Continued: a report generated by a model with database tools. It deals with 64,000 nt of DNA from a virus. Lineage: Duplodnaviria; Heunggongvirae; Uroviricota; Caudoviricetes. The stretch spans positions 1,687 to 65,686 of IMG/VR virus record IMGVR_UViG_3300029705_000054; one strand, 5' to 3'. The stretch is not shown here.

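What the first reader, a model, noticed from the sequence alone, without database searches (positions are those of the whole stretch)
19999..28500. 8.5-kb protein-free island of tRNAs and structured spacers, including non-canonical tRNAs and orphan tRNA halves
At least 18 tRNA or tRNA-like genes are packed here, several under class-B promoters. Some are oddities. There are two tandem Glu-like tRNAs with C33 and a 12-nt D-loop. There is a class-I-shaped tRNA with anticodon UAG (27050). A Thr(UGU)-like tRNA has a 13-nt variable region and a TCCAAAT T-loop (27643). An Asn-like tRNA has an ATCGTAA T-loop (26905). A 91-nt tRNA-like gene has a perfect acceptor stem and T-arm but no canonical anticodon arm (22980). 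A D-armless hairpin tRNA-like element with a GUA loop lies at about 23157..23224. An orphan T-arm+acceptor+CCA 3' half at about 23985..24029 (aggttcgactcctacaggctccacca) has no matching 5' half nearby. Long spacers are promoter-driven but unexplained, for example 20074..20375 and 21560..21930, with about 700 nt transcribed from the promoter at 21528. These spacers may hide further split or permuted tRNAs, tmRNA-like or other ncRNAs.
Basis: seen in the sequence. Interest (0 to 1): 0.6.

Follow-up and report, generated by a model that had tools for sequence, protein, structure and literature searches.

The report, continued
Best explanation
**What it is (shown)**
- This is the tRNA/ncRNA island of a ~135-kb tailed phage that reads TAG as a sense codon. 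Its host is probably a Clostridia/Eubacteriales bacterium.
- It is a co-oriented array of 23 tRNA or tRNA-like genes, with five copies of one promoter cassette.
- Six protein genes are interleaved: four small ORFs and two free-standing homing endonucleases.
- About 4 kb of leader and spacer RNA is conserved in related phages, and its base pairing is maintained by compensatory changes.
- Most "odd" tRNAs are conserved variants: C33, unusual T- and D-loops, long or short variable arms. One (23958-24028) is a decayed gene.
- Two minimal HDV-like (theta) ribozymes sit directly 3' of tRNA-Gln and tRNA-Thr.
- tRNA-Leu(UAA) and tRNA-Lys(UUU) are each interrupted exactly between nt 34 and 35 by a tRNA-like insert: a 7-bp acceptor stem, a T-arm, A73 and CCA. 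These inserts belong to a diverse family that is present or absent between alleles and occurs in at least 24 other IMG/VR phage contigs.

**How it most likely works (inferred)**
- Long transcripts are cut into units by host RNase P at the AUAU|G junctions in front of each tRNA.
- Host 3' tRNA-end nucleases and the two ribozymes free the 3' ends.
- The inserts are treated as tRNAs. RNase P cuts at their 5' end, leaving U34 with a 3'-OH. A 3' endonuclease cuts after their CCA.
- The two exon halves are held together by the tRNA body. They are sealed by the phage's DRB0094-type RNA ligase, helped if needed by the neighbouring kinase and phosphoesterase.
- The inserts probably spread at the DNA level with the help of the homing endonucleases that populate these islands.
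- The function of the conserved spacer RNAs is not known. One of them displays an anti-Shine-Dalgarno loop.
For: **Phage context**
- Suppressor tRNA(CUA) at 47108 and many ORFs that continue through TAG.
- The Pfam match of the PD-(D/E)XK endonuclease runs across an in-frame TAG.
- Sigma factor, gyrase and ligases are encoded in the window.
- The same genome occurs in a JGI contig of 135,217 bp.
- One relative is binned in an Eubacteriales MAG.

**Array and proteins:**

**Conservation of spacers**
- Spacer blocks are conserved in 6-9 of 10 loci at 77-89% identity. Flanking genes are at 68-75%.
- Compensatory pairs make up 13-29% of predicted pairs in the main spacer elements (S1, S5a/B2a, S5b, B4, B5, S14, S15), but only 2 of 42 in B1 and 2 of 16 in block C. 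Three coding controls give 7-9%.

**Ribozymes**
-.
- The same arrangement is published in PMC10879173. That paper also reports enrichment of DRB0094 ligases in phages carrying such ribozymes.

**Inserts**
- Removing them gives canonical tRNAs.
- A scan of 13 loci finds them only at 34|35.
- L001 (filled) and L005 (empty) have identical 5' exons, and their 3' exons differ only in the variable arm.
- Structure of the inserts: 96% of cells paired, 11 of 16 pairs compensatory, 0 of 500 shuffles.
- 24 of 33 IMG/VR pattern hits for Leu and 2 of 34 for Lys are true interrupted tRNAs. The remaining hits look like chance.
- Across 22 distinct inserts, 97% of cells are paired and 21 of 22 end in ACCA.
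- Exons of interrupted alleles stay foldable. Window and L022 differ by a compensatory pair in the variable arm.
- AAA (310 of 7035 codons) and UUA (121) are heavily used in the phage's genes.
- The predicted precursor fold keeps both cloverleaf bodies for Leu.

**Ligation enzymes**
- Ligase 40665-42101: TIGR02306 N-terminal match at 4e-9, phrog_968 at 1.5e-56.
- AAA_33 kinase 43387-43872.
- Phosphoesterase-like protein 44095-44643.
- The same neighbourhood is seen in L018.
Against: - There are no expression or end-mapping data. Every processing step is inferred.
- In Bacillus-type hosts an encoded CCA inhibits RNase Z (my knowledge), so the nuclease for the 3' cut is unidentified.
- The L010 insert ends in CUA, not CCA.
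- The ligase set is also what a phage needs to repair anticodon-nuclease damage. It is present in relatives whether or not they carry inserts, so its link to the inserts is circumstantial.
- The PD-(D/E)XK gene also follows an uninterrupted tRNA-Lys in L005.
- Spacer MFE z-scores are mostly between +0.5 and -3 and overlap those of coding controls.
- The structures tested for covariation were predicted from the same alignments, and many alignments have only 3-5 sequences.
- The Gln ribozyme scores below Rfam's gathering threshold (37 against 44).
- The second ribozyme is only a descriptor match plus a 20-bit hit.
Confidence: 0.6

Rival explanations
1. The inserts are selfish DNA insertions that simply inactivate tRNA-Leu(UAA) and tRNA-Lys(UUU). 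They are never removed from the RNA. The phage relies on host tRNAs, and the only products are tRNA halves and a free tRNA-like RNA.
For: - No splicing enzyme for such inserts is known in bacteria.
- Encoded CCA is an RNase Z anti-determinant in Bacillus-type hosts (my knowledge).
- The island tolerates dead genes, such as the truncated Ser(UGA) at 23958-24028.
- Homing endonuclease genes are abundant in these islands.
- The L010 insert ends in CUA.
Against: - All interrupted alleles keep a perfect cloverleaf once the insert is removed, across at least 24 IMG/VR contigs and 7 loci.
- Interrupted alleles differ from each other by compensatory changes in exon stems.
- The insertion point is identical in two different tRNAs.
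- The inserts keep G1-C72, A73 and CCA, which matter only at the RNA level.
- AAA and UUA are among the phage's common codons.
Confidence: 0.25
2. The long spacers are non-functional debris: decayed tRNA genes, endonuclease remnants and recombination scars. Their conservation reflects recent gene conversion driven by homing endonucleases rather than selection on RNA.
For: - MFE z-scores are weak.
- Some stretches have no counterpart in any relative, for example 24030-24269 and most of 25790-25923.
- One real pseudogene is present.
- Gene order and content of the islands vary a lot between relatives.
Against: - Conserved blocks have sharp borders and keep the same partner tRNA in the relatives where both are seen.
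- Compensatory pair changes occur at 2-4 times the rate of coding controls in most of the long spacers.
- Block C is near-invariant while the adjacent tRNA-Leu differs in nearly every stem.
- Spacer G+C is well above the genome background.
Confidence: 0.12
3. One reading: the spacers hide split or permuted tRNAs or a tmRNA-like RNA, and the orphan T-arm-plus-CCA piece is one half of a split tRNA.
For: - A T-arm, acceptor strand and CCA lie at 24001-24028 (family D2).
- ARAGORN at a lowered threshold proposes a permuted tmRNA at 23629-24028.
- Rfam gives a 9.6-bit tmRNA hit.
Against: - ARAGORN at default settings and Rfam at gathering thresholds find no tmRNA in the window, and ARAGORN found none in L001.
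- The piece aligns position for position with a complete tRNA-Ser(UGA) in relatives, and its own 5' strand (GGAGGAU) lies just upstream.
- A scan for acceptor and T-arm geometry finds no further units except tRNA(CAU).
Confidence: 0.03
4. The spacer RNAs are mainly processing devices: self-cleaving ribozymes or folding scaffolds that release the neighbouring tRNAs, as theta ribozymes do.
For: - Two HDV-like ribozymes sit exactly at tRNA 3' ends.
- Each conserved leader stays with one tRNA identity in the relatives checked: B1 with Glu, B2a with CAU, B4 with Ser(UGA), B5 with Pro, S15 with Gly.
Against: - A relaxed descriptor anchored at all 23 tRNA 3' ends finds only those two.
- Rfam at E<=5 finds no hammerhead, twister, pistol or hatchet ribozyme, no RNase P RNA, and no GOLLD or ROOL.
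- The ribozymes account for about 130 nt of roughly 4 kb.
Confidence: 0.15

Closest known systems
'Enigmatic' tRNA introns of Lak megaphages (Devoto et al. 2019, PMC6784885)
   Same: - Phage tRNAs are interrupted by short inserts, and one insert 'itself may encode a tRNA'.
- Alleles with and without the insert exist.
- The true boundary is offset from the software's prediction.
- The phages use an alternative genetic code.
- No mechanism is known.
   Different: - The phage lineage is different: ~135 kb and Firmicutes-like, against >540-kb Prevotella phages.
- Here the site is defined as 34|35 in Leu(UAA) and Lys(UUU), and the minimal architecture (acceptor plus T minihelix ending ACCA, down to 47 nt) is defined from 22 variants.
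- I could not compare sequences with the Lak introns.
- ARAGORN miscalls the window's Lys(UUU) as an intron-bearing Thr(tgt). The Lak 'Thr(TGT)' may therefore be the same thing. This is a conjecture.
Group I introns in bacterial tRNA anticodon loops (tRNA-Leu(UAA) intron between U34 and A35; tRNA-fMet intron encoding I-Ssp6803I)
   Same: - Same gene and same phosphodiester bond (U34|A35) as the classical tRNA-Leu(UAA) intron (my knowledge).
- U at position -1.
- A PD-(D/E)XK endonuclease of the I-Ssp6803I family (PF11645; family link from my knowledge) lies next to an interrupted tRNA.
   Different: - The inserts are 47-103 nt, too small for a group I core.
- Rfam Intron_gpI does not hit them, although it does hit a real group I intron at 62177.
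- They end in A, not the required terminal G.
- They fold as tRNA-like minihelices.
- The endonuclease is free-standing, not encoded in the intron.
Theta (minimal HDV-like) ribozymes next to phage tRNAs (Kienbeck et al. 2024, PMC10879173)
   Same: - The ribozyme starts at the first base after a CCA-less tRNA, in a TAG-recoding gut-type phage that also encodes a DRB0094-type RNA ligase.
   Different: - The score is below Rfam's gathering threshold.
- Here the ribozyme travels with a GIY-YIG endonuclease gene and sits after different tRNAs in different relatives.
- The second candidate follows a tRNA that does encode CCA, at a 3-nt distance.
tRNA-like structures used as processing signals (mitochondrial tRNA punctuation; MALAT1 mascRNA cut out by RNase P and RNase Z)
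   Same: A tRNA-like fold placed inside a longer RNA would direct RNase P and a 3' tRNase to cut on both sides. This is what I infer for the inserts (my knowledge of those systems).
   Different: In those systems the flanks are not re-joined. Here the flanks are the two halves of a tRNA and would need ligation. Nothing has been tested.
tRNA gene clusters of large phages (T4 with its tRNA region, stable RNAs and segB; T5)
   Same: - A co-oriented tRNA array with small ORFs, free-standing GIY-YIG endonucleases and non-tRNA stable RNAs between the tRNAs (my knowledge).
- An RNA ligase and kinase set is encoded elsewhere in the genome.
   Different: - There is far more non-tRNA RNA, about 4 kb in units of up to 520 nt.
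- tRNAs are interrupted.
- HDV-like ribozymes are present.
- No DNA similarity to any INPHARED phage.
GOLLD and ROOL large ornate RNAs
   Same: Large (300-800 nt), conserved, non-coding RNAs found in phages next to tRNA genes (PMC5737381).
   Different: No Rfam match to either family at E<=5. The S1, S14 and S15 sequences are unrelated to each other. No structural data exist.
Anticodon-loop variant phage tRNAs that escape host anticodon nucleases (van den Berg et al. 2023, PMC10264068)
   Same: The phage array carries tRNAs with non-standard anticodon loops, namely C33 in Glu(UUC) here and in Lys(UUU) of L005, L008 and L009. It also carries an RNA repair set.
   Different: Resistance has not been tested. 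That paper does not mention C33 or inserts.

Membership tests
Phage tRNA gene array | Many co-oriented tRNA genes in a phage genome, syntenic in relatives | tested here: met
   17 tRNAs by ARAGORN and 23 with orthology. 12 related loci carry the same island between the same flanking genes.
HDV-like / theta ribozyme (element at 25997-26064) | Nested double pseudoknot (P1, P2, P3) with a cytosine in J4/2 | tested here: met
   P1 has 7 bp, P2 6 bp and P3 3 bp, and GCUAAAA lies before the P2 3' strand. L005 has a compensatory change in P1.
HDV-like / theta ribozyme (element at 25997-26064) | Score at or above Rfam's gathering threshold | tested here: not met
   37.0 bits against 44 for RF02682
HDV-like / theta ribozyme (element at 25997-26064) | Cleavage site directly after a tRNA that lacks an encoded CCA | tested here: met
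   The tRNA-Gln model ends at 25996 and the ribozyme begins at 25997. No CCA is encoded.
HDV-like / theta ribozyme (element at 25997-26064) | Self-cleavage activity | not testable with these tools
   Needs in vitro transcription
Group I intron in a tRNA | Catalytic core (P3-P9) detectable; terminal G | tested here: not met
   No RF00028 hit in the inserts at E<=5, while the model finds 62177-62532 at 78 bits. The inserts end in A.
Group I intron in a tRNA | Insertion in the anticodon loop after a U | tested here: met
   All inserts follow U34
Archaeal/eukaryal protein-spliced tRNA intron | Bulge-helix-bulge motif, usually at 37|38, with a splicing endonuclease | tested here: not met
   The position is 34|35, and the flanks are 3-4 unpaired loop bases next to a 7-bp stem. 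The Pfam scans of selected window proteins gave no tRNA_int_endo family, but not all window ORFs were scanned and the rest of the genome was not seen.
Lak-type 'enigmatic' phage tRNA introns | Short insert in a phage tRNA that can itself fold like a tRNA; alleles with and without the insert | tested here: met
   description in PMC6784885
Lak-type 'enigmatic' phage tRNA introns | Sequence homology to the Lak introns | not tested
   Lak intron sequences were not retrieved
tmRNA | tRNA-like domain with G3-U70, a tag reading frame, and detection by ARAGORN or Rfam | tested here: not met
   ARAGORN default finds none. Rfam gives 9.6 bits against 47. The pair at positions 3-70 would be A-U.
Split or permuted tRNA | Separate 5' and 3' halves with complementary acceptor strands, in trans or in permuted order | tested here: not met
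   The 'orphan' piece has its own degenerate 5' part and aligns with an intact tRNA-Ser(UGA) in relatives. The acceptor-geometry scan finds no further units.
GOLLD / ROOL | Match to the family covariance model | tested here: not met
   No hit at E<=5 on 19800-28700
PD-(D/E)XK_5 homing endonuclease (I-Ssp6803I family) | Pfam PF11645 above the gathering score | tested here: met
   115 bits against 26.1, residues 1-136
PD-(D/E)XK_5 homing endonuclease (I-Ssp6803I family) | Cleaves the insert-free tRNA gene | not testable with these tools
   Needs a cleavage assay
DRB0094-type (Rnl5) RNA ligase | Full-length match above the NCBIfam cut-off | tested here: not met
   TIGR02306 scores 35.7 bits against 151, over the N-terminal 190 residues only. 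PHROG 968 'RNA ligase' at 1.5e-56 and PF09414 at 2e-4. It is an RNA ligase, but its subfamily is uncertain.

The most novel reading that the evidence does not exclude
The tRNA-like inserts are a distinct class of mobile tRNA intron, different from both group I and bulge-helix-bulge introns. They would be recognised and cut out as if they were tRNAs by RNase P and a 3' tRNase. The exons would then be re-joined by a phage-encoded RNA ligase.

This would be a third, so far undescribed, tRNA splicing pathway operating in bacteria. It would explain the 'enigmatic' introns seen in Lak megaphages.

In addition, the spacers would be a set of new large structured phage RNAs. One of them (S15) would present an anti-Shine-Dalgarno loop.
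Probability: 0.3. Interest if true: 0.85.

Novelty: new variant of a known kind. Interest (0 to 1): 0.68.

Why it matters
As far as I know and as far as the searched literature shows, bacteria and their phages have only self-splicing group I introns in tRNA genes. Here small inserts, too short for any known ribozyme, interrupt the anticodon of two heavily used phage tRNAs at one fixed bond. They keep a tRNA-like acceptor and T minihelix ending in CCA. They recur in dozens of otherwise unrelated phage contigs, and the exons stay intact.

If the tRNAs are functional, some enzyme set must cut and re-join them. That would give phage RNA ligases a role beyond repair of nuclease damage. It would also make the 2019 Lak "enigmatic intron" puzzle directly testable with defined substrates.

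Separately, the island shows how much conserved non-coding RNA a phage can carry next to its tRNAs, about 4 kb here. It also suggests that HDV-like ribozymes can travel with homing endonuclease genes, so that an insertion behind a tRNA does not block maturation of its 3' end.

Tried and rejected
- **INPHARED phage records.** Megablast and blastn of the island found only short tRNA matches.
- **JGI metagenome contigs.** Two scans with block C patterns gave 0 hits.
- **GTDB genomes.** The scan found only the MAG contig already held.
- **MFE z-scores.** With dinucleotide shuffles they do not separate spacers from coding controls. I dropped them as evidence.
- **Block C as a stable fold.** z = +0.5. 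It is conserved mainly in sequence.
- **Paralogy between spacers.** The only direct repeats are the promoter cassette and tRNA parts.
- **HDV-like ribozymes after every tRNA.** A relaxed descriptor finds only two. tRNA-Ile, which also lacks CCA, has none.
- **tmRNA or permuted tRNA.** Only a spurious ARAGORN call at a lowered threshold.
- **Inserts as suppressor tRNAs.** A CCUAG or CUUAG motif is present in most of the longer ones, but no 7-nt anticodon loop can be drawn consistently. Not pursued.
- **B1 as an antisense to the Glu anticodon loop.** This fits only the window sequence, not the relatives. Rejected.
- **The upstream 254-aa protein as a CCA-adding enzyme.**
  - The AlphaFold model is confident (pLDDT 94).
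  - Its best PDB matches are ANT(4')/kanamycin nucleotidyltransferase and Hailong HalB, with TM about 0.38.
  - No PDB sequence hit.
  - It is a Pol-beta-type nucleotidyltransferase of unknown substrate.
- **PDB sequence search with the ligase.** No hit.
- **'drum' RNA.** There is a sub-threshold hit only in relative L008, with no counterpart in the window.
- **phAss-1-like phages (PMC10607447).** They have a similar size and recoding, but no INPHARED record, which should include such genomes, matched the island DNA and the best tblastn matches of the ligase are Bacillus phages.

Full report
**1. What the window is**

The window comes from a large tailed phage that reads TAG as a sense codon.
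- It carries a tRNA with anticodon CUA at 47108-47182.
- Many long ORFs become continuous only if TAG is read through.
- The Pfam match of the endonuclease at 25252-25683 runs straight across an in-frame TAG.
- The window also encodes a sigma-70 factor, gyrase A and B, an NAD-dependent DNA ligase, an RNA ligase and a protein with a major-vault-protein shoulder domain.
- The same genome (99.98% identical) is a 135,217-bp JGI contig from sample 3300029305.
- No INPHARED phage resembles the island at the DNA level.
- The RNA ligase is closest (about 47%) to those of large Bacillus siphoviruses.
- One relative is binned in an Eubacteriales MAG.

**2. Comparators**

Homologs of the two genes that flank the island (19217-19981 and 28657-29037) gave 12 related loci with the same island between the same anchors: L001, L003-L011, L018 and L022. 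IMG/VR pattern scans added L025-L028. All comparative statements rest on these loci.

**3. Checking the observation**

ARAGORN finds 17 tRNAs at 19999-28496. Rfam adds five more matches. Orthology and a geometric scan resolve the rest as follows.
- 22607-22679 is a tRNA(CAU). It has a C1xA72 mismatch, a 5-bp D stem with a 3-nt loop and a GGCAGUA T-loop. ARAGORN recognises its orthologs in L022, L004 and L006 as a 69-nt Met(cat).
- 24490-24563 is a Pro(UGG)-like tRNA with a GGCAGCA T-loop. It sits where L018 has a canonical tRNA-Pro.
- 23136-23224 is a class-II tRNA-Tyr(GUA)-like gene. L010 shares it and shows a compensatory change.
It aligns with the complete tRNA-Ser(UGA) of relatives and has lost its anticodon and variable arms, so it is a decayed gene.

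No tmRNA and no permuted or split tRNA is present.

The total is 23 tRNA or tRNA-like genes.

The island is not protein-free.
- Three small ORFs (51, 80 and 73 aa) are conserved as full-length proteins in 9-11 relatives.
- There is also a 39-aa ORF.
- There is a PD-(D/E)XK_5 endonuclease and a GIY-YIG/NUMOD1 endonuclease.

**4. The odd tRNAs are conserved variants**

- C33 in tRNA-Glu(UUC), with loop CCUUCAA, is shared by L022, L005 and L010. Their stems covary. Other relatives have U33.
- The AUCGUAA-type T-loop of tRNA-Asn recurs in L022, L001 and L008.
- The 85-nt tRNA-Thr(UGU) with a long variable region recurs in L022.
- tRNA-Leu(UAG) at 27050 has A73. Its orthologs carry either a long or a short variable arm.
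- The 91-nt gene at 22980 belongs to a family with U73 and a conserved variable region AUACUCCAYUA. Its anticodon loop reads UAG in most relatives, UAAG in L010 and AUUGGAA (UGG) in the window and L022. What it decodes is unclear.
- A non-canonical T-loop, G(G/U)CAG(C/U)A, recurs in the tRNA(CAU), in the Pro-like tRNA and in many of the mini-inserts described in section 5.

These variants fit the published idea that phage tRNAs diverge in and around the anticodon loop to escape host tRNA nucleases (PMC10264068). That link is an inference.

**5. Interrupted tRNAs**

*The two cases in the window.*
- Removing 23362-23464 (103 nt) turns 23327-23518 into a canonical tRNA-Leu(UAA).
- Removing 25118-25195 (78 nt) turns 25084-25237 into a canonical tRNA-Lys(UUU).
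- Both inserts lie between nt 34 and 35.
- Both start with G and end with a 7-bp acceptor strand, then A, then CCA.

*Relatives.*
- tRNA-Leu(UAA) is interrupted at the same bond in L001, L008, L010, L011, L018 and L022, with inserts of 49-103 nt.
- It is uninterrupted in L003, L004, L005, L006 and L009.
- L001 (filled) and L005 (empty) have identical 5' exons. Their 3' exons differ only in the variable arm.
- An unbiased scan of 13 loci tested 359 minihelix-like candidates. Only these inserts yielded a tRNA across the junction, always at 34|35.

*Structure of the inserts.*
- Acceptor, D and T stems are 96% paired in seven inserts.
- 11 of 16 pairs show compensatory changes. None of 500 shuffles reaches this, and slid controls give about 40% pairing.
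- The window's Lys insert shares its core with the Leu insert of L001. The same family therefore sits in two different tRNA genes.

*Wider distribution.*
- IMG/VR scans for GGACTTG-N-CACCAAAAATCC gave 33 loci. Of these, 24 are true interrupted tRNA-Leu(UAA) genes on contigs of 30-233 kb from many samples. The other nine have at most 4 of 7 acceptor pairs and yield no tRNA, as expected for chance matches.
- A similar scan for Lys found two true cases with a 58-nt insert.
- In all there are 22 distinct inserts of 47-103 nt with 17 different acceptor strands. After selection for at least 5 of 7 acceptor pairs and 5 of 5 T-stem pairs, 97% of the cells are paired. G1-C72 is invariant. 21 end in ACCA and one in ACUA.
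- The smallest inserts are just an acceptor stem, a 12-16-nt linker and a T-like hairpin.

*Precedent.* The Lak megaphage paper reported "enigmatic" introns in phage tRNAs. One of them "itself may encode a tRNA", and alleles with and without it exist (PMC6784885). I found no later work on their mechanism.

**6. How the inserts may be removed (inferred)**

- The conserved features are the acceptor and T minihelix, G1, A73 and CCA. These are what RNase P and tRNA 3'-end enzymes recognise (established knowledge).
- RNase P would leave U34 with a 3'-OH.
- A cut after the insert's CCA would leave A35 or U35 with a 5'-phosphate.
- The two halves would stay paired through the acceptor and anticodon stems. 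The predicted Leu precursor fold keeps both bodies.
- The phage encodes an RNA ligase: PHROG 968, and a DRB0094-like N-terminus.
- It also encodes an AAA_33 kinase and a phosphoesterase-like protein. The same neighbourhood is seen in L018.
- In favour of function: exons of interrupted alleles remain perfect and differ by compensatory changes, and AAA and UUA are common codons in the phage.
- Against: CCA normally blocks RNase Z in Bacillus-type hosts (my knowledge), the L010 insert ends in CUA, and the ligase set is equally explained by repair of nuclease damage.
- Spread at the DNA level probably involves the homing endonucleases that litter these islands.
  - The window has a PD-(D/E)XK gene right after the interrupted tRNA-Lys. 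L022 has neither the insert nor the gene.
  - L005 has the gene after an uninterrupted, C33-bearing tRNA-Lys. The link is therefore loose.

**7. Ribozymes**

- 25997-26064 matches the F. prausnitzii HDV ribozyme model at 37 bits, below the gathering score of 44. E is 1e-5 in the local search.
- It has P1, P2 and P3 and a GCUAAAA J4/2, with almost no P4. This is the minimal or "theta" form.
- It begins at the first base after the discriminator of tRNA-Gln, which has no encoded CCA. This is exactly the arrangement described by Kienbeck et al. (PMC10879173).
- L005 and L009 carry it with a compensatory P1 change. In each case it lies just upstream of the GIY-YIG gene: after tRNA-Gln in the window and L005, after tRNA-Asn in L009.
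- This suggests a mobile ribozyme-plus-endonuclease module that preserves maturation of the upstream tRNA.
- A second candidate at 27731-27792 starts 3 nt after the CCA of tRNA-Thr.
  - It has P1 of 6 bp, P2 of 7 bp, P3 of 3 bp and CUAA before the P2 3' strand.
  - It overlaps a 20-bit CPEB3-ribozyme hit.
  - L018 has a compensatory P3.
- No other tRNA 3' end has such a fold.

**8. The spacers**

*Conservation.*
- About 4 kb is neither tRNA nor ORF.
- Its G+C is 0.41-0.51. Three of the four coding control segments are at 0.28-0.39 and the fourth is at 0.45.
- Several blocks are better conserved than the neighbouring genes: B1 (22060-22226), B2a (22488-22606), block C (23522-23621), B4 (23895-23957), B5 (24270-24489), and also S1, S14 and S15.
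- Block C is mostly 90-98% identical across the loci.
- In the relatives where both are seen, each block keeps the same neighbouring tRNA.

*Base pairing.*

| Element | Compensatory pairs / predicted pairs |
|---|---|
| S1 | 19 / 67 |
| S5a (contains B2a) | 12 / 45 |
| S5b | 11 / 48 |
| B4 | 4 / 14 |
| B5 | 10 / 35 |
| B2a | 6 / 24 |
| S14 | 14 / 108 |
| S15 | 20 / 105 |
| B1 | 2 / 42 |
| Block C | 2 / 16 |
| Three coding controls | 5 / 55-67 each |

Slid controls gave 0-4 for the spacer elements in this table and up to 6 for the coding controls.

*Caveats.*
- The structures were predicted from the same alignments.
- Several alignments hold only 3-5 sequences.
- MFE z-scores are unremarkable.

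*What they are not.*
- Rfam finds no known family in them at E<=5.
- They are not paralogs of one another.

*One functional hint.* S15 contains a hairpin at 27800-27820 whose loop is CCUCCUUUC, the anti-Shine-Dalgarno sequence. It is conserved with a covarying stem in L018, L022 and L025. C-rich loops of this kind are how Firmicute small RNAs bind ribosome-binding sites (my knowledge). Function was not tested.

**9. Verdict**

- The island is a phage tRNA array of a known general kind. It contains known elements: theta ribozymes and free-standing homing endonucleases.
- Two aspects are unusual: tRNA-like inserts at 34|35, and a large set of conserved leader RNAs.
- The inserts were glimpsed once before, in Lak phages, but they have never been defined or explained. 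Here their site, minimal architecture, diversity and distribution are established.
- The splicing mechanism is an inference at roughly 0.3-0.4 probability.
- Novelty: a new variant of a known kind.
- Interest: 0.68.

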